A stretch of DNA of 64,000 nt from Amoebophrya sp. A120 (taxonomy: Eukaryota; Protista; Dinoflagellata), in contig CAJINV010000021.1 in the NCBI GenBank assembly GCA_905178155.1, forward strand, positions 287,760 to 351,759, in the 5' to 3' direction. The notes beneath the pieces are model-generated. The model did no database searches. It was given only the letters and a program-made list of their open reading frames with translations, and had not been told where the DNA came from. This document shows positions 6,001-43,800 of the stretch, piece by piece. The translations under genes and the position numbers were made by a program. Position 1 is the first letter of the stretch. Each line of letters begins with the position of its first letter.

Positions 6001-7729
6001 TGACACAGCCTTATCAAAAAGAAAAATCCCCCCTCCCCATATCGAAAACGAAATTTTTACAACCGGAAGAGCCGTTTGGAAAACCGACTGCGTGATTGCT
6101 GCGGTTTTACACGCTAGCAACCTGAATAAAGCACAAACATAAGGCGGGCGCCGGGGATCGATTTCGCCGCATGGAGGCGCCTACTTTTGCAAGATCGTCT
6201 TGGCAACCAAAAGGGTTCGGGCTCTGGGCGCGATTTTATTGATAGATGGGCCACAGGAATTGACTTCCAAACGAGCCAAATGGTTTGGACCAGAAAAATA
6301 GTCCCAGGCAAGGGGGTTGATGCGGTGTGGCTATAATCCACCCTATTCGCAGGGCTTCCGCCTACGGAGAACCAACCTGGCTGAAGACGACGGCTGCTTC
6401 GTCCCTGATCTGGGGAAAGCTGGCCCGCCGGTCGTTGGGCTGGTGACAATAGGACGAGCCAGGCAACTGGTCGGGTTGGTTGGCCGTAGGACTACTCCCC
6501 GCCCCGCGCGGCGCACCCGGAGGCCTGTCTCCCACCGTGTTTCCGGGGCTTTTCCTTGCCCCGTTCGTGCGCCATCTCAAAGGCAAACCGGGGACCCGGG
6601 AACGGCCTTCCGCGGGATTATTCCAGGAAACGAAAAAGGCGACAAAAAAAAAAAGCCAAAAAAACCCAGCGTTAGCCCCGCGCCGTTTTTATCTTGCGGG
6701 CGCCTTTTTGTAAAAACGCAGCAAACACGCAGACGCCAAAAAAATGCCGGAATCTGCGGATACAGTTGCGGCGTTTTTAGGCAAATTGCCCAAAATCACA
6801 AAAGCGGCGCGCGAAAATTCGGATACAGCTGCGCAGTTTTACAAATGACGCGCAAAAAAGTGTTTTATTTTTCGCAGTGCCATCGTGATTGTGGTAATTT
6901 GGACCGTAAAAAAAACGACCGCGAGCCCGATACAGTTGCGGCGCATTTACGTTTTGGGACCCGGAAAGCGCAAACTTGCAGACAAAATCGCAGAATTAGC
7001 TGCGCGGTTTTAGGTTTTCAGCGGAAAAACGTGCGAGGTGTTGTGGGTTCCGCCCCTGTGGCCTGCCAAAAGCCGACAAAATCGAAACGCGAAACGGCGG
7101 ACATAGCCCCTGCGCATTTACAGACGAGGGGCCCCAACCCCGTGAGCGGTAGCAAAGACATGCACCTGCTGAAAACATCGCAGTTTAGGACTTGGCGGGA
7201 ATAATGAGCAAGGGGCCGGCTCATTTCTGTAAAACCGCAGCAATCACGCTGGCGCTATTCTTAACGGCCCTTTCGGCTCTAACGAAATTTGTGATGCAGT
7301 ATTTGAGTACACAAATCGCATTTGTCTTGCTGGAGGGGACTGCAGACCCATGCCAAGCCTGAATAGAGAGGCTTTGACTTAGGCGCTTAGCATGAAAAGC
7401 GTCCGCGATGTTGGCTCAACAGCATGACAAACCGGCTCCATAATGGGACGGAAGCTGCTGCCCTTGTCTTCTTGCAACACACACGTGATTTGTGACCTCA
7501 AATCAGCAACACAAATTTTCAAAAACCTACCTCTTCAATATGGGGAGGGGGGATTTTTCCTTGCGATAAGCCTTCGATAAACGCGAGAACGTTCTCGTGG
7601 ACCTTCCTATTTCTCGCCACACTTGCGATCGCCTTCACGATAAATGTGCTCATGAGCATTTTTGTGATCAAAGGCCCGGTGGGAGTCTGGTTGTCCGGGA
7701 AACTTTTCGGAGACAAGAAAAGGATGTGA
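19..7729 (+). CDS. P5(B)-type cation/polyamine-transporting P-type ATPase (ATP13A-like), multi-exon; the 5' end may lie upstream of the window
   Basis: Motifs LVPGD, PCDCVV, NESNLTGEAMPIQK, CFDKTGTLT (phosphorylation site), KGSP, MVTGDN, GDGGNDSGALKMAHVG and EGRAVL. Reconstructed exons ~19-954, 1103-1242, 1475-4977, 5179-5689, 5957-6011 and 7574-7729 (last TM helix SWTFLFLATLAIAFTINVLMSIFVIKGPVG). GT-AG introns 955-1102 and 4978-5178; the other three introns are TIR elements. Confidence 0.9.
1243..1469. mobile_element. Introner-like non-canonical intron (TAT...ATA class, decayed foldback)
   Basis: Imperfect TIR tatcatagttcaaaaacgca / tgcggttttgattttgata and inner IR ttaaaactaagcgggcc / ggccgctagttttaa. 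Flanks gtttg/gatgg. Removing element plus 5 nt restores the ATPase frame. Confidence 0.7.
5690..5951. mobile_element. Introner-like intron, TIR family A (tatcaaatgtaaaaatgtctgggtctggaa)
   Basis: ~35-bp TIR and 5-bp direct repeat aacgt/aatgt. Excision gives HNV|LAWEQP in frame. Confidence 0.9.
6012..7568. mobile_element. Introner-like intron, TIR family B (tatc..gaaaaatccccc-C-run-tccccatat), enlarged by a nested element
   Basis: TIR at both ends and perfect 5-bp direct repeat agcct (6007-6011, 7569-7573). Excision joins LTQP|SINARTFSW, the final ATPase exon. Confidence 0.88.
6091..7248. mobile_element. Non-autonomous TIR DNA transposon (MITE-like) nested in an introner
   Basis: 21-bp perfect TIR cgtgattgctgcggttttaca / tgtaaaaccgcagcaatcacg and 3-bp TSD ctg. 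Internal repeats gatacagYtgcg at ~6759, 6822 and 6929. No credible ORF. Confidence 0.85.
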
Positions 7730-16777: not shown

Positions 16778-19700
16778 ATGGTACAAAAATACTACCTCAA
16801 CTTCGAGAGCCAGCACTGGGTTTCCCGCGGGTGGCTTACGTTCAAAGCAGCTTTTTTTTCGGTGACGCTGCTGTTGCTTAGTAGTTGCAGCGTACTTGTT
16901 CGGGATGCCAGTGCAATAAAGTCCTCCGCGCGGCTGCGTACCAGCAGTGAGCCCGCAGCTTCTACTACCGCTCGCAGGGGGGGAGATGAGCATGAGGATG
17001 AACCGGTTTACCAATTTTTTCACACAGCACCAGGAGAGCCGATAGATGTACCAACGGTCGAGGAGCCGTCAACTTCGACACTGCGCTTGTTGCAACCTCC
17101 CCCGGCAGTTGTAGAGAACAATGCCGAGGACCAGCAGGAGCAGATGCCAACGCCCCGAGGACGTGAAGTGGGTGAACCTGGAGCGCGACGACGCTGGTCG
17201 TCCATGTCGCAATCTCCGGAACCGGTAGTTGCAGGTCCGCTGGAACAAGAACTACACCACCACACGCAAGAGACCACATCAAGAAGGCCACCTTCGCTGG
17301 GCCCATCTCCGGCGGAAAGCCCCGAAAGGTGGTTCGGCCCGGTGGACCTGGTGTGGTTGGGCCAGGAGCCGTCTCTAGCGCATGATACTACATCTGCTGG
17401 ACGAGGAGGACGAGGTTCGAGGAAGTTCATCAAAAATCGAGCACCCCCCTCCCGCGGGGTGGCGGGGGGGCGAGATGATTTGTCTGCGTTTCGGCTAGTA
17501 GCGGCCCGCCCCATTTCTGCAAGCCTTTCGGCCCGGACCAGCCGCGACTCCTTCCCGGGAGGGTAGAAAGGCCAAGCGCGCATCTGCCGCGCAAGTATTT
17601 CGCCTTTGGCGCAACTGGCTCGGGGGCTCGTTTACAAACAAGGCCGGCCAAACCTCTACAAAGGCGACAGGCGGCGCCCAGGGGCCCCCCTCCAGGGGGG
17701 TGCCTGAGGGGGGTACTTTTTTTGGATCCCGAAATCGGCCATTTTAGGTCGGGGGAAGGAACGCCAAGGGGGGTGCTTTTTGGGGGTGCTTTTTTTTGGG
17801 CAAAAGGGGGGGCCCTTGGATTGCCCCCGCGGCGCGACTTTCCAAGAGACGGCCATTGCTCATTGGATCCGGAAAGACCTGGCCGCAGAATGCTTAAAGT
17901 ATTGTCGTAGTGCTGCTCTGCGTGGTGACGGAAGACGAAGGCCGAAGCCGGCGGCGCTTCCGGTTGTGTGGGACCCACTGAGCAAAGCCGCCACATAGAT
18001 GAAGCCTACCCGAGCCAAACGCCTGTCCCGTGAGCCCACGGGAGGGGGGTGCTCGATTTTTGATGAACTTCCTCGATTTTCCTTGTCTAACTCTAGCGCA
18101 TGGTACTACATCAGCTGGACGAGGAGGACGAGGTTCTAGTAAAGCGACGAGTACTAGATCTTTTCTGAAGCTGGACGATAGACTCCGCTCTTCAGCACGA
18201 GATGAACCGGGGCGACAACAGGGGGGAGGGCACCATGGCTTCTCGTCTAGGCCTTCTACTAGTCGCGGGACGAGTACCCAGGGTGCTGATCATCACGACC
18301 AGTATGTTGGCGGGCAGATGGAGAAGCAGAGCCAGGATGCCGGAAAGACGTTCTTTTTCGGTAGTGGCACGCGGTTCACTGTTCCTGGAACTTCTTCACG
18401 TTCGCAACAGCAGCAGAAATTGCAAGGCGCCTATCATACGGACACGGCCCAACCACCCGTTCCCGTGGCGCCCGACGACCTGCATGGAGAGAGCCGTGCA
18501 GGTGTTGAGCTCCGCGAAGGTCGTGTGGGCTGGGATGCGGTCGAGAAATCGATAAATGCTTCCCCGTCCTCGGGAGGAGCTAGTACCTCACCATACGATC
18601 ATCATTACGAGCCATCTTCCAATGGCATGCACACCTCGCAGCACTCGTGGAACCCGAATGCGCCTGCCTTCAACTGTGCATATCATGATGACACGAGTGC
18701 CGCTGTTTCATCAGACCAACAACTTCGATACCAGCAGGAGCAGACGGCGCAGATAATGATGCAAATGCAATCCCAAGCCCAAGCGCAACAAGCGCAGATC
18801 TCGCAAGGGAACGGACCTTTGCACATGGGGATGGCCCTGCCTATGGCGATGCCAGTGCCTGCGCAAATGATGCAAATGAGCCCAGGAGTAGCTACACGAC
18901 CTAGCGCTGCTATGCCATGTATGATGAGCGGGCCCGCCCCGGTGCAGCAGATGATGGCTGCAGCTACTAATATTGCTGGAGGACCCACGATGCTGGGTAG
19001 TAGAAGCATAGCGCAACAACTGCAGCAAGAACTGCCCGCGCAACAACACCAACAACTGCAAGGAAACAGCCAAAATGGCAACTACGCTCCCCAGTTTCCC
19101 GCGATTGCCATTCACGGCAACATGGTGAAGTTGCCTGACGGCCGGAGCGCCCTCCTCATTCCGCTAGGCGGAAATGGTACAAACGCAACATCTACTTCTT
19201 CTACTCCCGGTGGTGCAGCTGTTGCTGGTGGTGGGCTAACGCTGAGTGGAACTGCTGGAATGAATCCGTCTACTTTATCGGGCGGAGTAATGCAGCTTGG
19301 TAATGGGGAACACGGTCCCGCTTCCGCCGCGTATCCAGCAGCTTTTGAAATGCAAAACGAGACTGTCAGAAATGTCGGCAAACTAAATCAGGGTAGTCTT
19401 GGTTTTCCAATGAATAAAGGTCAGCCCCAAGAAGAACACGCTGCTCTGCCCGCTTGGGGAGCGCAAGAACAGTTCAACACGGAACTGTTTCCATCTCCAA
19501 GCAACTACGCACATCAGCGGAGCCAGAGCCAGGCTGGAGCTCAAGACAATCACAACGTTGTTTTTGCGGCTGCACGAGAGGATGACGCTGAGCAGACCTT
19601 GAAAGAGAAACACGAGCGCTTCGTTGCCTACGGAAAGCAGATCCAGGACGAGTTGGAGTACATGCAGGGAATGCTGCTCAGCACAGCCGATAAAAACGTG

Positions 19701-22700
19701 AAAGACGAAGACAACAACTCTCGTCAAGCGCAAGCAGAACTGCTGGCTGATCATCCTGAAGCTACAAGAACTACCGGGGCTGGTCGTGCTGGTTGGGAAG
19801 TACACGCTAACGCCGCAGGAAGCAGAACCGGTGCAGCAGCACGAGCTTCGGAAGTTTGCGAGCACGATCATGGCCGGGAGGGCAATATTGGTACAACTAG
19901 TACTTCTTCTTCATCTCATCTACTCGCGGACGTTGCGTCAGCCTCTTCACTCGACCACGCTCCCGAACAAGCAAAGACTAGCGACGAGGACAAGGTCTTC
20001 AAAGATTTAGAGAACGACATTGCACCAGGAGCAGCACCGGTGGCTGCACGTGTGCAGCAACATGCTACATCTCCCGACGGAGCTGCAGTAGACCAAGCAG
20101 CCAACATCCTCGAAAAACAACTTTTGACCACTGAGCAAGCTGTTTCGCCGGAACTGCTGAGACAGTTTGCAGAAGAAGACCTCCGAGCTGCGGAACAAGC
20201 AGCGGCAAAAGCAGCGCCTGCCGCTAAAAGTTGGGCGTCTATGCTGAGAACGACCACGACGGGTTCGAAAATAAATCCTGGCACATTAGCAGGAGCAAAA
20301 GCAAAAGGGACAACTCCGAAAGCAAAACCGAAACCAGTGCTAGACCCTTTTATGAGCCTTTTGCGACCAAAACCGAAGGAACCCTCGTTCCGAGTTTCGC
20401 GTAGCGAGGTTGTACACACTCCGCATGCAGCACAGGCAGCAAGCAGGTTCATGCCAGCAAAACCGGCCAAGACAAATACGCCGACTGGATCTTCTTCAGG
20501 AGCCGGAGCAAGTCCAGGGGGTCTTGCTGGGAAAGAAGATCGGAACAAGATGAGCTCGCCAGAAGCACAAAGTATTGCTCAGGACTTTCCCGCAAAAGTG
20601 AATACGAACCGGCCTAAAAATGGCCCGCCGACACTGCAGCAGCAAGTCGAGGAACAAAATGGTGGAGGCAAGCTCAGCAGCCCAAGGACAACTACACATC
20701 AAACTGAACCGCAGATCAAGCTCGCAGTCGATTCAGTGCTTGCCGAGATGCAGGATCTGGCGCAGAAACGGGGTCTTGCTGTATCGGAACAGATCAAAGA
20801 GGAGGGTTCAGAACTACAACCACCTACCGAAGCCGAAACTTCTGAGGTTGTCGATAAAAATCTAGCCGAAAAGTTTGAAGCTGCGATGAAGATTGAAGAT
20901 ACAACCGCTGCTCATCTTGATGATAATGTTGAATACGAAGACGACGGCGAGAAAAGTGCCGACATTGCCTCCGAGCGGTCGGGGGTTGCAAGCACTGCTG
21001 CCGGGTCGAACTCACGGTTGTTGGAACTCGACACACTCACGTCAACTCCGGTCCATCGGCAGCAAGAACAGTCGCCATATTATTCCGGTCAGCACTCTCC
21101 GCTGCTTTTAGCCCAGCAGCACGACACGGCAGTATTACCATCGCTGCCGACGTCGAGCACCAGTGCGACCGCGAGTCCGCCATCCTCGTCGCCATTGCTC
21201 GCCGCACAGCGCAGTCCCGTGTTGGGTTGTCAGCTTGAGCGTGGTCGTGGTCCACTGTTAACAAGGACGAGTAACAAATCCCAATCCGCAGGATCTTCCT
21301 GCTCAGATATGCAGCTGCTTATTGAACAAGAAAAGCAAACGCTACCGGAGGACAGCGGACAGGCGAACGGAGGAGTGGATAATGCAGCGCTCGACGATCG
21401 CTATCGCAAAGAGGAGCAAAAGCTCTTTCAATTTGGTGCCACGGAAGGAGAGGGAGAAGCTGAGATACCTCCACCTGGAAGCGCGTCGGCACCAGGCTCC
21501 GTCCCGGGGAAGAGCACTGCGGCTGACGCGGTGGGAGCTGCAAGCTCCTCTGCAAATAGAAATACAAGTACACGAGGACCGGCAGCTGCACCTGCACCAG
21601 GGAAAAAATTGAGCAAGGGCCAGAAGAAAAGGCTAAATAAGAAGCGAAGTGAGGGAGAGAAGGCACAACTTGCAGGAACAGAGGTGCAAGAAAATGAGGA
21701 AGTCGAGGCGGATGGAACAACAACTTCTTCTGGGGAGCTTCTTGGGCAACAGTTGACGACCGCTGACGGCGTCGACCTTGATGCTGAGGGTGGAGATCAT
21801 GCTGCGGTCATGGTGCCAGCCCCGCTGGTAGTGGAAAGCGCAGAACAAGAAGAAGACGACAACTACCCTGGTGAAGCCGAACCGGAGCCCGAGGCCGATA
21901 ATTGCGAAGACGAACAAGGCTCGCCCTGCATATTATCGCACCCTCATTCATCAGGACCGGTGTTAGATGGCGACCGGGCTGCAGAAGCAGATGGCCTTCA
22001 AGTTGGACATGACAAAGCCGGAGCAAAAGAAGCTTCAAAATTGGAGGTTGACGATGACGGCCCGAGTCCAGGAGTTCTTGGCGAGTCCCCGTCCGCAGAA
22101 CAAAATATTAACTTGCCCGCGACTCCTTCTCCACCTGCGGCAACGAAGAGGCGCCGCGCAAAGCAAAAAGGGAAGCGTCAGGGAAGACTAGGAGACGAGG
22201 TGGACCACGAGCAAGCGGAACAAGAGGAGCAGGAGGAAAAAGAGCCACATACGGGGGCAAGTACACGACCCATTGCGTCTGAACAAGTAGAACATGCTTC
22301 TGCTAATGCTCCGGCACAAGAAAATCAACGCCCTTCTCCAGCGGTCACAAACGACAAGCCACACCTACAGACAGTAGCAAATAATCCCAGCAAGCCGGCC
22401 ACGCCGTCGGCTCTTTCGGGAAGCCCCCTCAAGGGCGCGAAACAGAAAAAGAAGCCAGGTAAATCCAAAAAGGCCGGCACAAGTGGTGTCGCACCGCCGC
22501 ACCTAGACGGCATTGACTCTGGGGAGGAAAGCTGGGAGAACGACGTGGATCTGCGGCCGGGGCAGTGCGAAAAATTTCTCGCGAAACTGCGCGCGCTGAT
22601 TGTCGACGCCGAGAAGGTTGCGAAGGCCGTTCCGGTGCCCTTCAACTCGGCGCGGAAGCAGGAAATGGAGTTTGAAACGCAGCTGTTGCGGGAGCGGGAA

Positions 22701-25700
22701 GTTTTTTTCGCCACCTACTGCCACGACGACGATGACTTCACGCAGATTCGGCAAATCGTGTTGGAACGCATTCTGAGCCAGGTCCCCTCACACACCGCGG
22801 ATTTTATTCTGTGGAAAACCATGATTGAAAATTTCCTCTCCGACGAGATGCTCTTCGGCCACACGTGGACGACGTTTCTCCAGGCCTCGACCCGGGTCTG
22901 GCTGTATGGGCAGGGGCTGGCGAACTACGAGACCGACTTCGCTTTGTCCCGAGATTTCGTAGAATCCTACCTGAAAAACGTCCGCGGGATCCACGACGAA
23001 CCGGTCGGGGCAAAGAAGATCATCTTGCCGTCCGCCGAGGAACTGCTGACATCCGCTCTTTCCGGCAAACCGGCGACGGAGAGCTGCGAAGATTTTTTAA
23101 CCAAAGCCCCGGGGAAACTGACGGAGCAATTCTCTTCAGCACGATACCTTCATAGTCAACATACGGGCTCGACAGGAGATGATCTTTGCTCGTCCGCCAG
23201 TCGTGAGCAAGGGTCTTTGTCCAAAACATACCTTGCGGTCGACCTGCAGCCTTGGCAGTACAGTTTTGATCCTGTTCATTTCGGGTTGTTCATACACGCC
23301 CACCGGGCACTCCACGAGCCGACGAGTAGTGGTCCGGGACTAGTACTAGGGCCAGAATCTCCTTCAAAAGCTGTCACTTCTAAAAGCAATGTCATTCGCA
23401 CCTACCGTGCGTTCCCTGCGGAAAAACCGATTACCCTGTCGGACATGCAGAGCGGCGCCTTTCCGGATGAGCACGTCCCGCCGTCCGCGGAACAGGCTGC
23501 GCAACTGGGCAACGCACGCTACAACACCGCGATGCCCTACGTCGAGCTGCACCACGTCCATCCTTCGTGGAGCCCGGCCATGCACTCGATCATGCTGCGC
23601 GTGTTGCACCGGCACATCCTGCGGAAAGCGCCGATCCCGCCCCCGGGCGACACCTCCGCCAACGGACTTAGTTCAGAGAGCACGCTTGGGGAGTTGCTGC
23701 ATTACCGAGGTGCGCGGTCTGTATCGGTCCAGCTGAAAGTGATTCCGTTGGAGCAGGTAACTGTTACGACTGGCGGGACCACATCGGGAGGTCCGCGCGG
23801 AAGGAGTAGACCGGAGGAGCCATTTGTGTCCGGAGACAGCTGTACTCTGGACAACCAAGTGGGCGAGGAAGTACGCTGCGGCCCAGAGGATGCAAGGGCA
23901 GGAGCAGCTTCTTCCAAAACTAGGAAAAAGAGAACGACCGCAACAAACACTAAGGCTGCTGGTGGACAAGAAGAAGATGAATCTTCGCAGGGAGACGCTT
24001 CTACTTCTACAAATAGAAGCGATGTGGACCACCACGTCGAAGTGAACCCGAAGGAGCAGGGAAAGCAGCAGACGATTTACACGGTTTCTGAAGCCAAGGT
24101 GAAAATCCACTACCACCGGTTCCGCAACGTGGAGCTCGCCGCAATCGACGCGCAATCCGAAGAATATGTGCTGCGCGCAGTGAACGCGGCTTTGCACAGT
24201 GACGAGACGATCTTCATGCTGTGGCTGGGCTACCGCACGTACCTGATGCACCAGGAGCACGATATCAATGTGGAAGTGGACAGCGGCCGCGTGGTGGCCT
24301 CGCAGGTCGTGGCGGCTTTGCAACATTTGCAGCAGAAAAACGCAACTGGTGGGGCTGGTGAGGCTGGAGGGGCCGGACAACAACAGCGTGGTCGTCTTGT
24401 CCCATCTAGAAGTCCTTCGGAGGGCAATAAAATCGACGCAGACCAGCAACGCGCCCATAATCTTCTGGAACAACAAATGCAGAAACACAGCGAGGAATTT
24501 TTTCTCCTGGATAGAAGGGTTTCGGTTGACGTCAACAGCACCGAGTTGGGCGACGTGAGCCCGGAGCAGATTCGACAGATCAACGAAACTCTGCTGCGGG
24601 GCGGCAACAGCGCTGGTGTTACAGAAGGAGAGTCGAGGACATCTGAGAAAAGCAGAAGCAACAGTACCTTGCTCGAAAAAATGCAGGACCAGCACAATTT
24701 CGAAGACGGTAAACCTTCGACAGCAACGCAATTCGCTGCGGCCGTGTTACGCATGAACAATGGTAAAAAGACCGGCAACTGTGACGGCGTGCGATGTTTC
24801 TCGAATGGTAAAGAATCCGCATCTAGCGCGGCGACGGACACGGAAGTGCTAGCCAGCTCAGGACAGGATCACCAAGAACCTCACTCGGATGAGCGGACCG
24901 CTAAGCAGTCACCTCCCGCTGCCTCGGCGCAGCCGCCAGCTGGTATTTCGTCCACCAAGTCTCGGTTTACGAATGTAGTGATAGCGGTGAGTGACATGTT
25001 GCGCTGCTTCTCGGGCGAGGAGGACGATGATCAGTATGTGGAATCTTTGCTGCTGAACGGCAGTCCACACAGGTTGCGCGAAATGGAGCTGATTCTTCTG
25101 GTTTACACACAGCAGCTCGACGCGGACCCGTCGGCGGTTTTAAAGCAGCACCGGGAGACCGCGCAGATGTGCTACGACCACCTGCGAAGCGTGCGCACCG
25201 GCGGGTTCTTCCCGGCATTGTTCCAAGGCGGGCGGAACGCGGATCCGCCACCGGTGCTGCCCTCCTTCGAAGAATTGAAAGCCCGGTCCGGGTCGGCGGT
25301 GGTTTACGACGAAGGGAGTTCAGTGGACATGCTGTTGTGGCGGGATGGCATGCGGCAGAAAAAAGCGAAGCTGGAGGTGGAAGAGGAGAAAAAGAAGGCG
25401 GACGAAGCAGCAGGAACTGATCGTGATTCATCCAAAGAGAAGAAGGATGTCGAGATGTCAGGTGGAGGCGTTGAAGGTAGCGCTGTTGAGGCTACTACAA
25501 CTCGAGCTCCTAGTTCCACCGCTCCCACGGGGGAACAAGTCGCAGACGACGACGACCCCTTTTTCTCGGAGTCGTCGGTCCTCTACATGCAGCAACTGCG
25601 AGCGCTGAAACCTCTCTTAACCGAGCTCGCCTCGCGACAGCTGGCAACCCTCGGTTTCCCGTGGCTCATCGCGGCGCGCGAAGATTCCCCGTCCTGGCGC

Positions 25701-28700
25701 TCTGGATTGTTCGAGGCGGCCAGCTCTGGAGAAGCTCCGCTAGCAGATAGCCAAGTAGACCCGTTTCCCGCTCGCTCCAAGCTGTTCCAAAAGGTCTTGA
25801 AAATGGAATCACGGCGGTCCTACCACGATTTGGCACTGGGCGCGCACGACAACGAGCGCGTGTACCACTCTGGGGTCGAAACAGAGGCCATGTTTCCGGG
25901 CCTGTGGGTCCCGCACTTGTCGCGGGGGATGCGTCTCAGCGATTACGCAGAAAATGAAGTAGATCTTGACGAACAAGCTAGCGCTAGGAAAATCAAGATG
26001 ACGGAAAAAGAGAAAGAGGAGTCTACCGCGGGGAAAAAGATGTTGCAACGGCGGCTGAAGATTCTCGAGCAGTTTCTTCGCGACTACCTATTGGAGAAAA
26101 TCTTCCGGGACGAGTCCACCTGGTTGGCGCCGCCCACCGAGGAGGAACGAAACGCAGCCCGTGTTGCCGACATTCGGACTCAGCACGACCTGCTCAGCGT
26201 CATCCAGCAGGACAGCTGGGCGGACGCGCAGAAGCGGCAAAGCCCACTAGCGAATCAAAATGGAGGGAAACAAGGCTCGGATCAGGGGGAAAAGCTACCT
26301 GTTGTGCAGAACACTGCCGTGCGGGACCTCATGGTAGAGTGGTTTCAGAAGGAGCAGAAGAAGCACGCCTCACCGGCGGATGCGCCGGCCGTGAAATTGT
26401 TTACCGTCATCAGCCGTGAAGTGATCAACTTCTTCAACATCAGTCCCGCGCTCCGGGACAAAATGTTCTTTGTGGACGGGGGCTTCCGGCCCTCGAAGAA
26501 CCTGTATCTGGTGCAGATACCGGCATTTCTATACACATCGAATCTCGAGGAGGAGGAAAAATGCACCAGCCCAAGTAACGTCTCGCAACCGAAAGAAGAA
26601 TCTTCGCCGATGGGTGCTGGAGAAGGTTCAATATCTACTCGTCCCTGCTCCAGAACGACGACGTCGCACGATCAAAGTGAAAAAGCTAGCACTTGTTCCT
26701 CGTCTAAAAAGGGGAAGAAACTTCTGAACAAAAAAGCTGAGAAGGTAAAGCAGATCAATTGCTCCCTCGAAGGGGATAAGCAAGGGACAAAACCGCTCTT
26801 GGAAGGAACTTACCCGCTCGACCTCGGCTACATGGCGATTACCGTGGATGACGGCCGGAGCTCGCAAGCCCTCATAGATTCTCCCGCGGCTTTGTTCATG
26901 GTCAATGGAGGTATAATCTTCAGATACGACTTGAATTATTCTCAAGAAGAGTCCTGCTCGAGCTTTTTGCCTCGAGGCAATTTTCCTTCGCGCATCTCAA
27001 AATAAAATCTGAAACTGAATATGACATAAATCCGAAGTAGACACTACGAAAATCATCAACCTAAGGTGGCATGCCAAACTTCTTGCACTGTGCGACCAAC
27101 GGTGGTATTGTCGTGGACATTTCGCAGACGGACTTTTTTGTGCCGACCGCGGCAAGCGTCGGTGGGGGAAGGGATCAGGAGGAAAGCAAGCCAGGCAAAA
27201 AGAAGGGAAAGAACAACAAGGCGGGTTCTTCTACTAAAGCTGGTGCATCAGCTCCGACATCAGCGGCTGCAACGACGCCGACTGTGGCTGCCGTGCAGTC
27301 GCTTCTCGCAAAAGTGGACAAGGATGTGAAGACTCATCCCGGTCCGCAAATGATGCTTCCCAGAATGACCATCGGGGACATGCCCAACACCCGTCTTTAC
27401 GACTTGGACGGAGTTCTGGCCGGCTACGGTTCAATGTACGACACTAGTTTGAAATCCAAATCATCAACTACAGCAAAAACTACTACTACTCCCCAACAAG
27501 GAACGAGAAAATCAAAATCATCTTCGGCGCAGCAAGGAACATCGCCGACTGCAGCCGAATCAGTTGCAGATGAGCACCTTGAAGATGCAACCTCCGACCA
27601 GAGCAAGCAGCGGAGAGCTTTTGTGGTCGAATTCCTCGATCCCAACGCCCCGGGCGCTTATCAAGGTGAGCTGGATGGTGACAGCACCGTGAGGTTGCCG
27701 TTGTCCTCTCCGGGAGGTCGCGGTGGAAATTCAAATTCAAACAGTGGCTCCGTTACTTATTTCCTCCCCCCCTCTATCACCGGGAGAGAGACGTTCACGA
27801 CGACGCGCCGCGTGATGGGGCGGGTCCGGCGCTGGGCGCTGAAGAAGTGGATGGGTGCCGGGGCGTCCCACGTGGACCATTTCCTCTTCAAGGATTGGGG
27901 GGCCAGCGAGGTGTGGAAGAATGGCGAAACGGCAATCACGTCGTTCTTGGAAGAGCTGGTGGCTTTGCAGCAGCAGTTAGTGGAGAAATCCTTGATGAGC
28001 ATCCTGCGCTACGTCGCAATCCACAATCACGCGCAGTCCGTGATATTTGGAGGCACGACGACAGTACAGCAAGGTCTACTTTCATCTGCAGGAGGCATCA
28101 AGGGCGGTTCAGCTAGCAAAGGTCGCGGTACTGCTAGGGCGAATAAGCGACAGCAAGGGCAAGGCTCTGGTGCAGCAGCTGCAGCAGGCTTGTGTACCGT
28201 CACGGAGCTGGTTCCTCACCCGAATAGCGTCGAGCAGGCGCTCTTCGGAGGTGCAACTTCCAGTGCTTTCTCTTCGGGGGTACTCACTCCCAGCTCGGAA
28301 AGCGTTGCCTCGTGGTGGACCGAGATAATGTTCAATCCGGACGCTGCCGCGCAGACGGCGCCGACCCACCCGAGTGAGAAAAACGGGACCCAAACGTGCA
28401 ACGCCAAGGAAATCGACTACAGCAACGCAACCTCATTGGGAACTACCACTACGAAGAACAAATTGCAGCTCCTTCAACCAGAATCCGTGGGGGAGTTCGC
28501 AAGCGTCAGGGCACTGCCACCAATGGTTAGTACAACAGGACAGACGAACAGCAAAAAGACCCATGTGGACGAAGCGGCAAGGCAGAAGGAAAACGAAGAA
28601 CTGGCAGAAAGAATTAATGAAAATGTGAAGAACTCCGAGCGGCTGCAAAATTCCTTCGACACCCGACCCGTGAACCGCGCGTTCGTGCACATGCGACTGC

Positions 28701-34807: not shown

Positions 34808-37800
34808 ATGGGCAACAAGAAGATCATGCTGTCGCAACCGAGCAAGCTTCTGCGTTTGTGCGCTGCGGCCGCAGCTGCGCAGCTGACGGCTCTCCACAGC
34901 AAATGCGGTGTAATCAGGTCGTCTATCACTATCCTCGTCGAAGCAGCCGCGCCGCTCGGCCCCGGTCGTACTAGTCGAGAATCACGTCGAAATAGGGCTA
35001 ACGATCGAAATCCGTCGAAATACAAGCAAGAGCAGCCTGAAACTACAAGACAAAATAGCGGAGGGAATGTGAGTGATCCTAACCGCCCTCGCACTTCTGC
35101 GCGGAGCCACCAGACGAGCAACGCTTCAATGATTGGCACCGCCGCTCCAATTCCACGACCTGAGCCGCTGCGTGGTCAGCCAGCAGCGGCTCGAGCGTGG
35201 TTTGAGGTTCCCGCTCCATCCTTTGGAGGTTCATCTTCATCCTCGGCCCCGTACAATCCGACTCTGACTCCAGTACAACAGATACAACCGCCATGGCCGA
35301 CGATGGACTACAACAGTGTGCAAGTTGTACTGCAGCAGCAGCAGCTGTATGCGCGAGTACTAGGGCAGCAACAGCAAGCTTATGCTCACCACCAGATGCA
35401 GATGGCGAGCAACATGAGGCAGCCGCAGCATGAGATGCAGATGGCGAGCAACATGAGGCAGCCGCAGCAACAGCAAGAGCAAACGGCTCGACCACCATTG
35501 GGAGAGTGGCTGCACCAGGGGCCACTCTGGCCTTCCACTACTAGTACTGTGGGACCTCAAGCAAGTGGAGGAGTAGATGTTGCAAGTAGGCCAGGGGAAG
35601 AACTAGAACGACAGAAACATCAACAGGCGCACGATCTTCTCATGGCAGGAGCTACAAGAAAGGCAATAATTCAGTTTCGGAAACAAAACAGCATGCCGTC
35701 CGCCTCAGCGTCAGACGACCGCAGGAGCACGACCACTACTCGAGGCACAAGCGAAACAAGTAAGCAACGAAGCGGAAGCAGCAAGCACAAGCAGCACCAA
35801 CAAGCTCCCGTAACAACTGGGACTGCTTCTTCGCCTGGGTCGACACCTCAAGCGTCGTCGTACATCAGGAGCAATTCCGCGTCTCCCAACAGCGACGATG
35901 TGTCCATGTTTGGAGAGACAACTGAAGACAATTCTTCGCGACCTTCCGCGTCGTCAGCGCCGACGAGTTTTACTCAAAAACAAAAACAAAAAGCCTCGGA
36001 AACAAGTACATGGGTTCCCGCTTACGAAGCCTGGGCCGGGTGGGAACCAAAGTTCCTGGTGTCTCCTCAGTTCTTATCAAAGGAAGAGGTGTCTTAACGT
36101 GAAAAACAAAACAGTTTATTTAATACAATTCAGGTACCATGGCTGCACCAGTCATGCGTGGATTTTCAATTTTCTCTATCGTGGATGGAGCTATGCGATA
36201 CGAATACTTACAAAGTCGAATAATTTGCTGCGCGCCATTTGTTCGTGTCATGCATTTAGAATTACTGCATGAAGAGATGTTGAGATTGGGCAACATGCCT
36301 ATGCCACAAAACTCTTTTCAATAAAACGTCAAGACACTTTTTTCTGTGATAGTTGTTCACCGGCGAGATCGCGATGAAGATTGCCCCGAACGACGACAAC
36401 TACGAGAGAGAGAAACAGCAGGAGAAAGATCATCTGGGCGTGCAAAGGGCGTTGCAGAAGCACGCCGAGGACAATGTCCAGGGCACTGCTCGGCGACACG
36501 GCGTGACTGGTCCGCGGCGGGAGCTACAGCAAGTCACGTGGCAACTCGACTGGGAGGACGATCGAAATGTGCGGGATAGGAGCACCTCCGCCGTGATTAA
36601 TTTGCTGGACCGATTATTGGCCCACAAGCGACGCATCACCAAATCGGCGGAAGTCACCAGCCTGATGCTCGATTTGATTCCCGAAAGCCTGCCTACGAAG
36701 TTTGGCACCGACCACATGATGTTATGCATTGCAAATATGTCTGGGTCTGGAAACTTGTAATGCTAAAAGTGAATGAGAGCTCTACTGCAATACGTAGCCA
36801 AGCATGACAAATTTTTGGGCTCCTTTGTGTTGCGTGTTCCGGATGGCAAACTGCGTTTTTGCATGACAGTTAAGAAGACCGCTTCCTGCCCATGCATCAC
36901 AGATTCTTGAGTCATGTCAGACATGCATGACACGTTAGCAATCTTCCAGACCCAGACATTTTTGCATTCCATAGATGTACGATCTAGACGACTTGGGATA
37001 CTACGGCCTCTACGACTTCTATGGATCTGTCAGGATTGAAATCGTCAAAGTTGAGATGATTTGTCATGCATAAAATGCAACCCTCAAAATGCCTGTCTTG
37101 CAGACTAGGCAAGGGAGGCAGATTGTAAGCCTGTTGCGGGGTAGAAATAGAGCTGCTAAAGTAGCATGACAAAAGGCTTCTTCCTTACCCAAACAGCATT
37201 ACAAGCTGGATTTCGGATCTACCCAAATTTGTCATGCGCCGCTTGAAAATTGGTCTTCCAACTGGTATCCATTTTATGCATGACAAATCATTTCAACTTT
37301 GTCGATTTCAAACCTGACGCTTCCATAACTTCCTTCACGTGAAAGAGCAGATCCATAGTAAAAACTACCAGCAGCTTTGTAAAAAGTCGGGGGCGCAGCA
37401 TGAACATGAAAAAAACCAGCCCCCGCACGCTAAAACCTACGCCTTCGTCAACTTCATCAACGAGGACCATATCGAACAAAAATCTGTTATCGTTATCGGA
37501 TTGGAAATTGCTGGCAAAGGCCAAATTTTTTTTAAGTTTAGCTACTGACTTAGCTACCTCAAGAACTAGCTATGATTTTGAACTAGTTGTGTGCATTTGG
37601 CCAAGCGCCGCGCCGAAGCCTGGATCATGTCGAGCCCATTCTGCCGGACCGTTTCGAGCTGCGCGCCAACCCTCCCAGGTGGATGCGATTTGCTCAGCTT
37701 CCGGCAGTGCAAGTTGGAAGCTTGTTTTGGGCTCATAAAGATCAATTTGTAATGCGGACCTGCGTCACAGACGCGTCACGTTTTTGACATGGAAAAAGTG

Positions 37801-40800
37801 CTGCCGTGCCCACTGCATCACACAGGTAGATGCCCAGAAATGAGATTTTTTGGGGTGCTCTGGTTGCCGCCCAGTCGTTGATGATGAAATCTGCCCACCA
37901 TCTCGCGGCCACCATCGTCACCGGGGTCTGACCTGAGAAATTACGGGAAATAGGATGGCACGCGGACTATAAAAGTGACCAAAAAGTGTCGTAGTCGTTG
38001 TTATCGGTTTCGGCCAGGGCCTCGGAAATCTGGCCAATTTGACCAGCAAAAGTGGCCATTTTTCCGAAGCCTCCGGGCAAACCGATAACAAGCACCCTTT
38101 TTGGTCACTTTTATAGTCCGCGTGCCCTCGTGCTACGTGTCTGTTATCGGTTTCGGCTTGACCACCCCACCGTGATAAAAATCTGTTATCGGTTGCGCTT
38201 TTGGCATCGCGCCAAATCCAACTTTCGCAAAGTAGACCCATAAACTTGAGCTAGCCACGACCTGAGTCGGACTATAAAAGTGGCCAAAAATGGTGCTTGT
38301 TATCGGTTTGGCCTTCTGAACCGATAGCAGACACCTAAGCACGGTGGCACGCGGACTATAAAAGTGCCCAAAAATGGTGCTTGTTATCGGTTCTGCCGGA
38401 GGTCCGGCAAAACGAGGGCACTTTCCCCCCCCAGAAAGGAGGTCCGGAGGGCCTCCGGACAACAAGCATCCCCCTTGCCCAAAAAAAAACCCAAAGAAAC
38501 TAGGAAACAGGGACGCCCACAGCTCTCCAAGCACTCCAAAAAGGAGTCCTTGTCAGCGCGCCGCTTCGCCAGCTTGGCGAGCGGATCGCCCTCGTCGATC
38601 TGCTTCTTCTTTGCCATGTCGATCAGCTCGTTCTTACACCCAAACCACCCCCCCTCGCACTGACAGCAGACGCGTCGCCGCCTATCAGCTTCCGGACATG
38701 CTTTGCAAGCACTCGCAGCCACACTGTTTTGTTGGCGCAGTTGGCAAGACAATATCCAGATCGGACGCGGAGTCTGGCCTGGGGTGACTGCGCGACACCG
38801 AACCGGAACACCACCGCCTCGAGATCCGCCGCGTCAAGTCTGCCGTCTGCTGCCCCAGAAGGATGACCAAATGCACACAACGAAATCAAAATAATCATGA
38901 CCGAAGATAGCTACCTCACTATCTAATTTTGAAAAAATTCTCGCTTTCGTTTCAAATTCTTAATTCGATAACGATAACAGATTTTTGCTCGATAAACCAG
39001 CCCCCGCACGCTAAAACCTACGCCTTCGTCAACTTCATCAACGAGGACGTCGCCCGCATCTTTTCAAATTTTGATAAGTGGCTGCCCACTTTCCAAATTT
39101 TGAAAAGATGCTGAAGGAAACATCTTTTCAAAATTCGACAACCCGAACAGCGCAAATATCAAATTTTGAAAAGATGCTCTTTCTGCATCTTTTCAAATTT
39201 TGATTGATAGGTGGCTGCTCACTCTCCAAATTTTGAAAAGATGCTGAAGGAGACATCTTTTCAAAATTTGACAACCTCAACAACGCAAGCACTTGCTTTG
39301 TTGAGGTTGTCAAATTTTGAAAAGATGTTTCCTTCAGCATCTTTTCAAAATTTGACAACCTTTTTGACAACCCCTTTGATGAGGTCTCCCAAGAGGCTAT
39401 TAACTTAACCTAATCCGCATGGTATGGTGGATTTTGATGAACCTGTTTGGGAACCTCTTTGGTGCGCCTAGACAGAGAATTGTTGACGAAAGTCCAAGGC
39501 TTTGGCTTGCGCTCCAGCTGGCGGGTCGCCAGATGGTAAGCAAAGCCGTGCCTCTGGCGACATTTGTTTGCTTGCCTCTTTTGTGGCTCCGAAGATTGCG
39601 AAGATGCCCCCTCAGCAAGTTTGCGAATTTTGAAAGCCACGCAGAAGAGTAGGCTGCTCACCCTTTCCGCGGCTGTCGAAATTTGAAAAGATGCGCTGGT
39701 AGTATCTTTTCAAATTTTGGAAGCCACAGAAGACTGAGCTGACCTCCCTTTGCGTGGTTTCTCAAATTTGAAAAGATGGTCCTTCTGCATCTTTTCAAAT
39801 CCTGAAAACCACAGCACAGCCAGCTGCTCTCCTCGTCTGCGGCATGTAAAATTTGAAAAGATGCTCCTTCAGCATCTTTTCGAATCTTGGCAACCTCAGG
39901 ACAGAAAACGGATCGGCTCTTCTGCGGCTTCGAAGATTGAAAAGATGCTCCTTTAGCATCTTTGCAAATTTTGAAAACCACAGACGCGTAAGCCGACCCC
40001 GTCTTCTGCGGCTTCAAAAATTGAAAAGATGCTCCTTCAGCATCTTTTCAAAGTTTGAAAAGCACAGAAGAGCAGGCGACCCTCCTGTTTTGCGCCTTTT
40101 GAAATTCGAAAAGATGTTCCTTCAGCATCTTTTCAAATCCTGGAAACCACAGAAGAGTAAACTGCTCGGGTCTCTTGTGGCTTCGTTATGGAAAAGATGC
40201 TCCTTCAGCATCTTTTCAAATTTTGCAGGCCAAAGGCCACGCGCTTCAGATTTGAAAAAATGCTGAAAGGGCATCTTTTCAAATCTCAAGAACCACAGGA
40301 GAGCACAGCAACTTTTTCGCCTGTTGGTTTTCAGATTTGAAAAGATGCGCCCCGAGGTATATTTCCCCGCTTCAGCCGTGTCCACATTTGAAAAGGTTGC
40401 GCCATGAAGCACGAGCCACCTCGTCAGGGGTTGCTCGCTCCTCAGGTCTCCCAGATCTCTCGACCCCTTTGGCTTCTCGGACAGCTGTGGTCTGTGCGCG
40501 CCTCCCTATTCTACCTAGACCTCCCATTCCAGTTGGCTTTTCCGGGTTTCCCAGCCTACGCCGCCTGTCCTCATTTTACTGGGCGCGCGCCAAGTCCTGA
40601 ACCGCTAGGGGTTTGGGAAGCTGCGCAGAAGATGCGGCGGGCGTTGTTTCCGAATCAGGCCCAAGCCAGGCCGGGGCAGATAAGAGGGGAGGCGCAGCCT
40701 TTCGCTCGGCTGCGCTTTGTCGAGGGTAAATTGGCCGGGGGCATTTTCCGCGTTTGTCGCTATTGCCGGGTGCCTTTCCTTACCTGCGCAAGCAGAGGCG

Positions 40801-43800
40801 CGCTCAGGGCCCATGGCCTCATATGATTGGGAGGCTCGTTTGGGTGGCTTTTCTCTTTGGGGTGTTTGGCTTGCGTTTCTGCCCCGGGCCTCGGGGCAGA
40901 AATAGGGCAGCCCGGCTTGACGCGTTTGCAAAGGCGGACGCGCAGCCGCCATCGAAGAGGCGCTACCCGATAATCGGCGAGGGCGCCGAGCAATCAACTG
41001 GCCAAAATTTGAAAAGATGGGCGAAAAGGTGGAAATTTTAGGGCCTTCATAAAACCTACGCCTTCGTCAACTTCATCAACGAGGACGTCGCCCGCTCGTT
41101 TTTGCTGCGCGCCGCCAAGGGCGAGCTGGCGGCGAAAACCTTCCGCCGGGTGAAAATTGCGGCCAAGCAGGGGTTCGCGCGACAGCTGCAGAACTGGGTG
41201 AATCTAGATACAGAAAAGGATACGGGAAAATTGAAAACCTACGAGGACGACCAAGGGAAGGTCAGGACACGGACCACGGGCAGACAAGTGGCCGGTTCGC
41301 AGAGTATAAGTTGTGTAGTTGTTGTGTTGTTGACCACTGAATTTCTTAATGATTGAAGATAAAGTTATGCTCTTGAAGATATTTTTGTCTACGAGTACGA
41401 CCTCCATCGATCTCCAACTCCAAGTTCAAGAAGTGTCTGTTCTTTCCACTGCAACTTTGTGATATTCGGCGGCGATCGTAGGTTTGTGGATCGTTAACAT
41501 CTACGAAATGAAGATTTTTGAAAGGATAAGGAGTGGCAGAAGATCGCATCATCTTCACCGGCAAAGCACGAAGATTCTCGTCGCGCTACTCTAACTCTTC
41601 ACCTTTACAACCTGCAAGTAGTCCTCTATTGCATGCGTATTTGTAAAATGAAAAAAACTATACAGTTCTTGGAATTTCCCGCACGGCGCGCATCCACAAT
41701 AGCCACTTCGTACCCTTGATTTTCAAGCGGTCTCCACAGAGCGAGCCGGCAATGGCCTCGCAGGTGTCGTCGAGGATGCCTTCTAGTACGGACGCCGGAA
41801 TATTAAATCAAGGTGAACATCAAGGTCCTGCTCTGCGCATGCGCACCCCCTACGTGAGCCACGCGTTCCGATTGACCCCTGATTTTCCGAAAAACTTGCT
41901 GGCAGTGGCGCTGGACGTGGAAGGGCCGTACTTGCGCGAGCACGACGTGCGAAAGAACCGCGTCCCGGTTTATCGTGCGGAAAAATCCCCCCTCCCCATA
42001 TTGAGAAGGTATATTTTCGAAAATTTGCGTTGCTGATTTGAGGTCGCAAATCACACTTGTCTTGCAAGAAGAGAAGGGCAGAAGCTGCCGCCCCATTATG
42101 GAAGCGGCTTGCCATGCTGTTGGGCCTAAAGGGCAGCCGTTTGCCATGCTGAACAACTAGACCCATACGCCCCACCTAGCCTGGGGCTCTGGCCGCAGTG
42201 TCTCTCTGGAATACAAAGCTGATTTGTGTACACAAGTCCAGCATCAGAAATTCCTTTTTGATATGGGGAGGGGGGATCTTTCCTCACAATACGGTTCCGG
42301 ACGGGTACAGTTCGCGGGCGTGGCGCAGCCTCGGCTGGATCGTAGAGCAGTGGTATTACAATGAAAAATGCCCCCACCCCCAAACTTGAAAGCATTTGTA
42401 TTGCAAACCTTTCCAAATGAAACATTCGCCCTCTTGCATGTATCAGTACACAGATTTCCGATCGTGAATAGCAAAAATTTGTATTGCAAAAGATCCCAGC
42501 AAGAGCGGTGCTTGTCATGTAAGCGATGCGAAACACGACTACAATCTGCATCAGAAAGATTCATACTCCTTTCATGCATGACAAAAAGTTTTCATTTGGA
42601 AACTTCGCATCACAAATTTTTGCAACTTTGGGGTGGGGGGCACTTTTCACTGTAATAAGTGGCGCCGCGGGTGGGTGTACGCGGACGAGCGGCAGAGGTC
42701 GTTGTGCGCTGAGTACCGACTGAGCCCCTTCGCCTATCTTGCGTGGAAACGCCTCCGGGCCACGCGAGGGATGTACCACGTGCCGTTTCTGCCACTGTTG
42801 CCGGATGTTCTGCCGCAGCCTCACGGCACGACTGGTGAAGAAGATGAACAACGTCAGGGTCGTGATGCTTTCTCGTCGAGTGCTGTGCACTTTGTCAGCA
42901 AGGGCGTGCGATTTACAGAGGAAACCGCAACGGCCTTGTTAACCGCCCTCGTGAAGCCAGAGAACCTCGCAAAAGTCCGATTTCCCTTCCCGAAGCAGGC
43001 CAACAGAAACCTGTGGCAGAGGATTCAAGCCGGAGAAGACGGGAAGAGCGCACTTTCAGGTACGGAGTGTATTAGGATCTACAACAGTACTTGCTATGTA
43101 TAAAGTAGAATGATAAATTGGATTTTTACTCTCGGTTGTTGATAAGGTTGAGATGCAGGTCATTTTTCATCCTGTAATAGTGAATGACGGCATCCAATAC
43201 AAATTCTAATTCTCATCTTCTTCTTCCTTCAAGTTGTACATAGATGATCATGATGTGTTTCTCTACTTAGCGTTAGCAATCTTTCAAGCCGTGCAACCTT
43301 TTCCTTCAGGTGTTAATTGTACTCCTGAAGACCACGAGCAACAAGATGCAAATGCGGCTAGACCAAGAAGTAGACCATTGGAGCAGCAGCCGCAGCCTGA
43401 ATTCAAGCCGTTTGAACCGAGCGAGACATACAAGAAGTTTTTGGCGCAACACGGGCATCATGATGCAGCAACCGGCTACGCACCTGTCCTGGATGCTATG
43501 ATGAAGGACACAGTCTTTTTGGAGTCAATGAATCGCACCGTTGGGGCGGAAGCATCCTGGTTTCGAGAATTCTGCAGCCAACAAGGGCAAGAACCAGCTG
43601 CGTCTTCTGAAAGAACAAGAAAAAGTGGCACAACATCCAGAAATTCGGCCGGACGATCTTCTGGGTCTGGCGCAGCACCACGTATGCCTGCTGCATCCGC
43701 CAGCTCCGCCTCGGCCGCGGCCGCACCACAATCGAAAAAAGCCCCTAGAAATTATGCCACCGCTGCATCAGCACATGGTGCGTGTGGACCAGACGCGAAG

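What the first reader, a model, noticed from the sequence alone, without database searches (positions are those of the whole stretch)
17373..18136. Independent third case: TIR element, filler and 46-bp exon duplication that together form a canonical intron
Seen: a 660-bp element with ~38-bp TIRs, unrelated to the other two, is followed by 14 nt of filler and a 46-bp copy of the upstream exon. This is the same length as at 39012/41050. Filler plus duplicate reads ttttccttgtCTAACtctAG, resembling a pyrimidine tract, branch-point-like CTAAC and acceptor. With GT at 17415 this gives a phase-matched GT-AG intron 17415-18096 joining ORFs 16778 and 18030. Two mismatches between the copies indicate the structure is real and has aged. 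Inference: long duplication is a recurrent property, not a one-off.
Basis: partly seen in the sequence, partly recalled or inferred. Interest (0 to 1): 0.8.

Follow-up and report, generated by a model that had tools for sequence, protein, structure and literature searches.

The report
Clipped transposon intron with long duplication
In a gene of the marine parasite Amoebophrya, a transposon with one intact end and one clipped end sits between two 46-base copies of gene sequence, likely left by host repair of a one-ended transposition; the single transcript-like contig that crosses it lacks the insert in frame but skips the predicted GT splice site and joins beside a predicted RNA hairpin, which makes it a likely natural test case for how this parasite's unusual introns are cut.

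Summary
The repeat is real: 46 nt with 2 mismatches around a TIR element, in a gene of Amoebophrya sp. A120. Two readings need correcting. (1) The 14-nt 'filler' is the element's own intact 3' end: other family copies run to 18090, then enter different flanks, and at least one carries those 14 nt at a left-type end. This copy (17417-18090) has lost 14 nt of its left TIR. (2) The only junction contig (1 of 4 RNA-type runs, depth 3.3) joins 17405^18097 (GA..AG, 691 nt, in frame, +9 codons), not GT 17415. That GT lies inside a predicted stem rebuilt from the duplicated exon. Long duplications flank 3 of 4 long elements and 0 of 14 short ones here. All three have an intact downstream end; two have a clipped upstream end with microhomology. 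This fits a one-ended transposase event finished by host templated repair, as described for retroviral half-site integration, rather than a family TSD. A120 introners are published; I found no paper on this long-duplication variant (7 searches). An unreviewed note of this scan reported the class on another piece of this genome.

The parts
16778..17405 (+). Upstream coding exon (ATG 16778) up to the observed junction
   Evidence: ORF; X3 contig covers 17302-17403 then jumps
17373..17418 (+). Upstream copy of the 44-46 nt duplication (likely the new copy); last 2 nt (TC) shared with the TIR
   Evidence: X1 contig spans it to 17446 with 0 other letters
17408..17415 (+). Exon-derived 8-mer predicted to pair with the orphan element end 18081-18088 and rebuild the hairpin base; contains the G of GT 17415
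   Evidence: pair probabilities 0.93-0.94; centroid structure
17406..18096 (+). Removed segment, 691 nt, GA..AG reading (equivalent cuts 17404-18094 and 17405-18095); leaves 9 extra codons
   Evidence: one X3 contig, depth 3.33; translation
17415..17416 (+).
17417..18090 (.). Non-coding multi-copy TIR element, 674 bp as it stands
   Evidence: variant contigs along its whole length in X1; no Pfam hit for its two ORFs
17417..17454 (.). Left TIR, lacking the outer 14 nt that the right end has
18039..18090 (.). Right TIR, intact, 52 bp, including the so-called filler 18077-18090; terminus TTAG on the minus strand
   Evidence: other copies end at 18090/18091 with other flanks
18091..18136 (+). Downstream copy of the duplication (likely the original target); supplies AG 18095-18096
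   Evidence: X1 contig from 18062 with 0 other letters
18097..27005 (+). Downstream coding exon, low-complexity ORF of about 2970 codons, no family or relative found
   Evidence: patchy X3/X5 contig cover to 21400
37413..39048 (+). Comparator 1: TAT..ATA element 37470-38994 with both ends intact, 5-nt repeat GACCA/AACCA and a 51-nt in-frame exon duplication
   Evidence: gene model P0001 keeps a 17-residue tandem repeat
39012..41095 (+). Comparator 2: element 39058-41051 with intact TAT-type right end, left arm about 33 nt short, 44-46 nt duplication
   Evidence: P0001 removes it with one copy
6049..7290 (.). Control: nested 1.2-kb element with TTAC/TTAG termini (6057-7282) and an ordinary 8-bp target duplication

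Best explanation
This is a damaged copy of a multi-copy, non-coding TIR transposon inside an exon: its downstream end is intact, its upstream end lacks 14 nt and abuts a 44-46 nt copy of the exon, likely because only one end was handled by a transposase and host repair joined the other, and one transcript-like contig shows the insert removed in frame at 17405^18097. Inferred DNA steps: the free upstream end (not joined at insertion, or cut later in an abortive excision) was trimmed, annealed by short imperfect homology to exon sequence about 45 nt beyond the intact end, primed synthesis back to the target site and was sealed to the upstream flank. Inferred RNA steps: the end of the copied exon pairs with the orphaned 14-nt tail and rebuilds the base of the TIR hairpin; the G of GT 17415 falls inside that stem; the loosened A120 splicing machinery cuts just outside it (0-2 nt 5', 4-6 nt 3' of the virtual element ends). 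The protein would gain nine duplicated residues instead of being truncated at codon 262.
For: Shown: family copies end at 18090/91 with at least two different flanks, and the single-copy contig starts at 18062. Interior letters of X6 record 16 / X7 record 18 match this copy's LEFT interior in register (21 of 30 by hand, against 10 of 30 for the right interior; 18-nt motif hits 17459-17476, 0.08 expected by chance), yet the records reach 18090, so a full left end exists in the family. Case 2 has the same anatomy. Junction microhomology: TC shared, 6 of 10 matches, top 2% of junction pairs. The break point ranks 6 of 286 exon positions for pairing with the orphan tail, case 2 ranks 12 of 276. 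Long duplications at 3 of 4 long and 0 of 14 short elements (Fisher p 0.005; 0.02 if cases 1 and 2 count once). The junction contig has 0 other letters and none between the sides. Precedent: one normal end, one truncated end, large host duplication and short homology in aberrant HIV proviruses (PMC5041404, passages).
Against: The junction rests on one contig of depth 3.3 in a run whose RNA status is a guess; X5, X6, X7 (same sample) have no contig there and X9 laid 0 reads (no test). The flanks of other family copies could not be paired, so their duplication lengths are unknown. No empty allele, ortholog or deposited gene model of this gene was found, so which copy is new is inferred. The wider local-alignment score at the junction is unremarkable (15% of pairs score as high). 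The second left-type record is ambiguous (18 of 30 left, 14 of 30 right by hand, 0.46 expected). Case 1 has an intact left end and keeps a 5-nt repeat, which fits repair after insertion better than half-site insertion, so the timing may differ between cases. A strict 'one before, four after' cut measured from the rebuilt stem gives 690 nt, one short of the 691 seen. Hairpin pairing is computed, not probed.
Confidence: 0.6

Rival explanations
1. One-sided recombination with a spliced cDNA or an empty allele: a normal insertion was broken at its upstream end, the upstream exon invaded an element-free template, copied about 45 nt across the insertion site and was end-joined back to the element (an aborted intron loss).
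For: The extra copy is on the upstream side in 3 of 3 cases, the polarity an antisense cDNA template predicts (inference). Case 1 is explained base for base by a normal 5-nt insertion followed by a 51-nt copy rejoined at AC. A120 holds retroelements (PMC12130899, passages).
Against: 3 of 3 on one side has p 0.125-0.25, and cases 1 and 2 share one exon. No empty allele appears in X1. The homology between the clipped TIR and the target at the break is explained more directly by priming from the element end.
Confidence: 0.16
2. A dedicated transposase class cuts its target with a 40-55 bp stagger, so the long duplication is the ordinary TSD of these long elements.
For: Three unrelated elements with 44-55 nt duplications of similar length. 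An unreviewed note reports 37-57 bp repeats on another piece of the genome. Long TSDs exist for R9 and Dualen LINEs (PMC9977147, passages) and, from recall only, for some bacterial IS elements.
Against: Two of three copies have a clipped upstream end, by different lengths (14 and about 33 nt). The elements have different termini (TTAG, TAT). A 1.2-kb element with TTAC/TTAG termini has an 8-bp TSD, and 13 TAT elements have 5-nt repeats matching at 3-5 of 5 bases.
Confidence: 0.13
3. On splicing only: the main product is the canonical GT 17415..AG 18096 (or AG 18132) intron, and the contig seen is a minor isoform.
For: AG|GTTCG is one base from the AG|GTACG donors of two canonical introns in gene model P0001. 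A pyrimidine run and CTAAC precede the AG; CTRAY lies within 20 nt of only 125 of 4200 AGs. GT-AG makes up 35% and GA-AG 1.5% of A120 introns (Table S4). Contigs show presence, not absence.
Against: 0 of 1 junction contigs use it. G17415 is paired at 0.93 in the predicted stem. U1 snRNA was not found in A120. In-frame pairs are common here (54 of 126).
Confidence: 0.2
4. Assembly artefact, or a dead gene.
For: Repeat-rich region; low transcript depth; no homolog of the protein found.
Against: X1 contigs match both junctions exactly, the copies differ at 2 sites, and the X3 contig carries the diagnostic bases of both copies. The ORF stays open for about 2970 codons.
Confidence: 0.03

Closest known systems
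Introner elements / non-canonical introns of Amoebophrya sp. A120 (Farhat et al. 2021, PMC7789003; abstract, sections 10-12, 16, 25, supplement part 3 and passages read; figures not visible)
   Same: Same organism; repeated, non-coding, inverted-repeat element in an exon, hairpin-forming, absent from a transcript-like contig without a GT donor.
   Different: Published direct repeats are 3-5 nt (searched to 8 nt) against 44-46 nt here; published A120 ends start TAT, this one TTAG; one end is clipped; removal is not precise (adds 9 codons).
Aberrant one-ended (half-site) retroviral integration finished by host repair (Varadarajan-type proviruses, PMC5041404, passages read; author name recalled)
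   Same: One normal end, one often truncated end, host duplication at the aberrant end, short homology at that junction.
   Different: There: a retrovirus, drug- or mutant-induced, duplications often hundreds to thousands of bp. Here: a TIR DNA element, natural and fixed, 44-55 bp, tolerated through splicing.
Introners that co-opt splice sites from the TSD or add codons (Gozashti et al. 2022, PMC9860276; Roy et al., bioRxiv 10.1101/2020.10.14.339549; passages read)
   Same: Both splice boundaries come from duplicated target sequence; GA donors in recent dinoflagellate introner introns; net codon gain known (Aureococcus, +4 residues).
   Different: There the TSD is 3-9 bp and the register is fixed per family; here a 44-46 nt duplication offers many registers and appears sporadic.
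[quoted passage not shown]
   Same: The duplicated segment contains AG|GT, so a 718-nt GT-AG intron would restore the old mRNA exactly.
   Different: A transposon lies between the copies, and that pair is not the junction seen.
Long variable TSDs of R9 and Dualen LINEs (PMC9977147, passages read)
   Same: A long host duplication flanks a mobile element; one precise and one truncated end.
   Different: Those are non-LTR retrotransposons; this element has TIRs, no A-tail and no coding hit.

Membership tests
Amoebophrya A120 introner element | Inverted repeats joining the two intron ends | tested here: met
   38 bp perfect, 50 nt at 92%; fold z -6.8 on 20 shuffles; longer than the published 8-20 nt
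Amoebophrya A120 introner element | 3-5 nt direct repeat overlapping the exon/intron boundary | tested here: not met
   44-46 nt repeat; only 2 nt (AG) repeated at the junction itself
Amoebophrya A120 introner element | Member of a repeated family | tested here: met
   variant contigs along the element and other flanks in X1, X3, X6, X7; copy number not measurable from contig depth
Amoebophrya A120 introner element | End motif TAT + 7 nt + AAA | tested here: not met
   intact end reads TTAG; spacing to the A run fits if read from TAG
Amoebophrya A120 introner element | Removed from RNA at non-GT-AG boundaries | tested here: inconclusive
   one contig, depth 3.33, RNA status guessed
Non-autonomous TIR DNA transposon (MITE-like) | TIRs, multiple copies, no coding capacity | tested here: met
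   2 internal ORFs, 0 Pfam families; no Rfam match near threshold
Non-autonomous TIR DNA transposon (MITE-like) | Short fixed-length TSD | tested here: not met
   not met in this copy; the family TSD could not be read because left and right flanks of other copies cannot be paired from contigs
Non-autonomous TIR DNA transposon (MITE-like) | Cognate transposase and superfamily | not testable with these tools
   no whole genome held
Canonical U2 GT-AG intron | GT donor used | tested here: not met
   0 of 1 junction contigs use 17415; low depth
Canonical U2 GT-AG intron | AG acceptor | tested here: inconclusive
   AG 18095-96 is one of three equivalent cuts
Canonical U2 GT-AG intron | Branch at CTAAC, lariat | not testable with these tools
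   needs lariat reads
One-ended integration or excision finished by host repair | One normal end, one truncated end, host duplication at the aberrant end | tested here: met
One-ended integration or excision finished by host repair | Short homology at the aberrant junction | tested here: inconclusive
   TC shared, 6 of 10 matches (top 2%), pairing rank 6 of 286; wider local score only top 15%
One-ended integration or excision finished by host repair | Event observed de novo or against the pre-event allele | not testable with these tools
   no empty allele or ortholog found
Non-LTR retrotransposon with long TSD (R9, Dualen) | Reverse transcriptase or SINE-type tail, no TIR | tested here: not met
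   TIRs present, no Pfam hit, no A-tail

The most novel reading that the evidence does not exclude
In A120, long TIR elements regularly acquire 40-55 bp exon duplications at one end; the break point rebuilds the hairpin base out of exon sequence, and the splicing machinery re-registers on the rebuilt hairpin while passing over an in-frame AG|GT. Such copies would be a natural mutant series that decodes the unknown non-canonical splicing rule, and a genome-wide source of internal peptide duplications (9 residues here, 17 in P0001).
Probability: 0.3. Interest if true: 0.75.

Novelty: new variant of a known kind. Interest (0 to 1): 0.5.

Why it matters
How Amoebophrya removes tens of thousands of non-GT-AG transposon introns without a detectable U1 snRNA is an open question. 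Ordinary introners hide the cut inside a 5-nt repeat. A copy whose hairpin base has been rebuilt from exon sequence, with an in-frame GT on offer, separates 'find GT' from 'measure from the hairpin'. It also shows how a botched transposition can be tolerated and add short tandem repeats to proteins, which bears on the rapid protein evolution reported for this genome.

Tried and rejected
No whole genome is held, so the suggested genome-wide flank census could not be run. Two exact-pattern scans of metagenome contigs found 0 loci. No second copy of the terminus in the window. No RNA holder was listed on record for the stretch; 6 of 11 listed runs were laid (X1, X3, X5, X6, X7, X9); X9 laid 0 reads, which is no test; X5, X6, X7 have no contig at the junction, which is no evidence. 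Both lays went to the focal locus, so cases 1 and 2 have no read evidence, only the deposited model P0001. Protein searches for the host gene found nothing within the lengths searched; the representative search returned only two fragments of this same ORF, so no gene model of the junction was seen. Rfam: 2 weak matches far below threshold. Rejected: 'filler' as non-templated repair DNA; precise removal through the repeat (718 nt); summed contig depth (about 2200-2600 at 18072) as a copy number; the two mismatches as proof of age (they fit the 3-4% spread among family variants, but error-prone repair could also make them); phase match as evidence. The census script often mis-called direct repeats and was replaced; one search also lists many chance pairs, which I set aside by eye, keeping 13 short TAT elements plus one read by eye at 31450 for the 14. 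Literature searches found no report of 40-55 bp duplications at Amoebophrya introners; figures S19-S25 of PMC7789003, the datasets of PMC12130899 and preprint supplements were not seen and could bear on this.

Full report
Observation. The spacing is 718, not 720, because TC at 17417-18 belongs to both repeat and TIR. GT 17415..AG 18096 is in frame, but so are 54 of 126 GT/GC/GA..AG pairs around the two copies. If the element is retained the frame stops at codon 262.

Organism. A neighbouring gene (34808-45000) is 100% identical to a protein labelled Amoebophrya sp. A120 by its source. The window is full of short TAT..ATA elements with 5-nt repeats (13 recovered, matching at 3-5 of 5 bases). 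These fit the published A120 introners: 8-20 nt inverted repeats, 3-5 nt direct repeats, TAT ends, 65% non-canonical introns, U1 snRNA not found (PMC7789003). The deposited model, from a transcript-guided pipeline, removes such elements with one repeat copy.

The filler is the element's end. In run X1, which has even depth of about 43 over the flanks and so behaves as DNA, the single-copy contig on the right starts at 18062, 30 bases before 18092; sequence up to about 18091 is therefore shared with other loci. Records in X1, X3, X6 and X7 align to 18090 or 18091 and then go into at least two different flanks. The interior letters of X6 record 16 and X7 record 18 match this copy's left interior in register: 21 of 30 by hand against 10 of 30 for the right interior, and an 18-nt motif from them hits 17459-17476 with 3 mismatches (2 hits in the window, 0.08 expected). 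A second record type is ambiguous (18 against 14 of 30). So the family has a full 52-bp end on the left in at least one copy, and this copy (17417-18090) has lost 14 nt there. A 1.2-kb element with similar TTAC/TTAG termini at 6057-7282 has an ordinary 8-bp duplication.

The junction. Of four RNA-type contig runs, all one sample, one (X3) has a contig across the site: 182 nt, depth 3.33, letters 1-102 on 17302-17403 and 103-182 on 18095-18174, no other letters and none between. The cut can slide by two, giving AG..CT, GG..TA or GA..AG (17406-18096). It skips 691 nt, stays in frame and adds nine codons over the collapsed exon (3178 against 3169 residues to the stop at 27005). The joint is not in X1. 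RNA status is the tool's guess and one contig cannot exclude other isoforms; raw-read run X9 laid 0 reads and is no test.

Why there. Folding gives a long terminal stem (z -6.8 on 20 shuffles). Exon-derived 17408-17415 pairs with the orphaned tail 18081-18088 at probability 0.93-0.94, which puts the G of GT 17415 inside the stem. The observed cuts lie 0-2 nt 5' and 4-6 nt 3' of the virtual element ends, close to the published 1-5 nt between inverted repeat and splice site. Unreviewed notes of this scan propose a 'one before, four after' cut: the 3' side fits one of the three cuts, but a strict reading from the rebuilt stem gives 690 nt, not 691. A spliceosomal GA..AG reading fits as well; GA donors are common in recent dinoflagellate introner introns and make up 1.5% in A120. 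For the GT rival: AG|GTTCG is close to the AG|GTACG donors of two canonical introns in P0001, and CTRAY precedes only 125 of 4200 AGs.

Recurrence. A self-comparison finds three such duplications in 64 kb, at elements of 674, 1525 and 1994 bp: 3 of 4 long elements and 0 of 14 short ones (p 0.005, or 0.02 counting the two adjacent cases once). Case 2 also has an intact TAT-type right end and a left arm about 33 nt short. Case 1 has both ends, the repeat GACCA/AACCA and a 51-nt in-frame copy; P0001 keeps it as a 17-residue tandem repeat and collapses case 2. In cases 3 and 2 the duplication ends where the exon pairs unusually well with the orphaned tail (rank 6 of 286 and 12 of 276); a wider similarity score is unremarkable for case 3 (top 15%). 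An unreviewed note reports 37-57 bp repeats around 0.7-1.8 kb inserts on another piece of this genome, with a half-insertion reading; I could not check that DNA.

Mechanism. One normal end, one trimmed end, a host duplication on the trimmed side and short homology at that junction are the described products of one-ended retroviral integration finished by host polymerase priming and recombination (PMC5041404, passages). I infer the same for a TIR element, either at insertion or after a later single-end cut; case 1 favours the later timing because it is explained base for base by a normal 5-nt insertion plus a 51-nt copy. Confidence 0.6. Rivals: one-sided copying from cDNA or an empty allele (0.16; 3 of 3 copies upstream), a long-stagger transposase (0.13), artefact (0.03). 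On splicing alone, GT-AG as main product 0.2. Shown: the anatomy, the family end, one junction. Inferred: all repair steps, the hairpin's role, which copy is new.

Comparison and verdict. It works like an A120 introner but fails two defining features (3-5 nt repeat, TAT end). Splice sites taken from target duplications and net codon gains are known for introners with 3-9 bp TSDs; intron gain from duplicated proto-splice sites and 4-12 bp repair repeats in Daphnia are known; long TSDs are known for LINEs. Seven searches found no report of this long-duplication variant in Amoebophrya. All papers were seen as passages, except PMC7789003 (named sections and part of its supplement). New variant of a known kind; interest 0.5, held down by the single junction contig and the missing family census.

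Noticed in passing
window 37413-39048: TAT introner with a 51-nt in-frame exon duplication; the deposited protein P0001 carries the resulting 17-residue tandem repeat around a YAFVNF motif (RRM-like by recall; Pfam found nothing in the 104-aa ORF).
   Followed up: partly
window 39058-41051: 2-kb element with an array of about 85-bp palindromic units related to its TIR; left arm about 33 nt shorter than the right TAT end.
   Followed up: partly
window 6012-7568: A 1.2-kb TTAC/TTAG-ended element with an 8-bp TSD nested in a TAT element whose un-nested relative lies at 41971-42291: two TSD classes (5 and 8 bp) in one genome.
   Followed up: partly
window 17465 and 17811 (run X1): One contig joins these places on opposite strands: a family member with a rearranged or differently built interior.
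   Followed up: no
window 17668-18091 (runs X3, X5, X6, X7): RNA-type runs hold interiors and ends of other copies of this family, one at depth 15 with its flank, so some copies may be retained in transcripts.
   Followed up: no
window 27005-27065: Frame change between the 3000-aa and 1186-aa ORFs across an A-rich gap ending in AG, with no obvious GT donor or TIR: a likely non-canonical intron.
   Followed up: no
window 58977-59774: ORF whose middle resembles, by recall only, the C-terminal region of non-LTR retroelement proteins; no Pfam hit.
   Followed up: no
window 1365-5015, 12212-13003, 50123-51841: P-type ATPase-like ORF (Pfam Hydrolase; DKTGT motif by recall), short-chain dehydrogenase, and GPR180/TMEM145 transmembrane domain.
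   Followed up: no
window 19093: A>T difference in one X3 contig of depth 3.4; may be an error.
   Followed up: no
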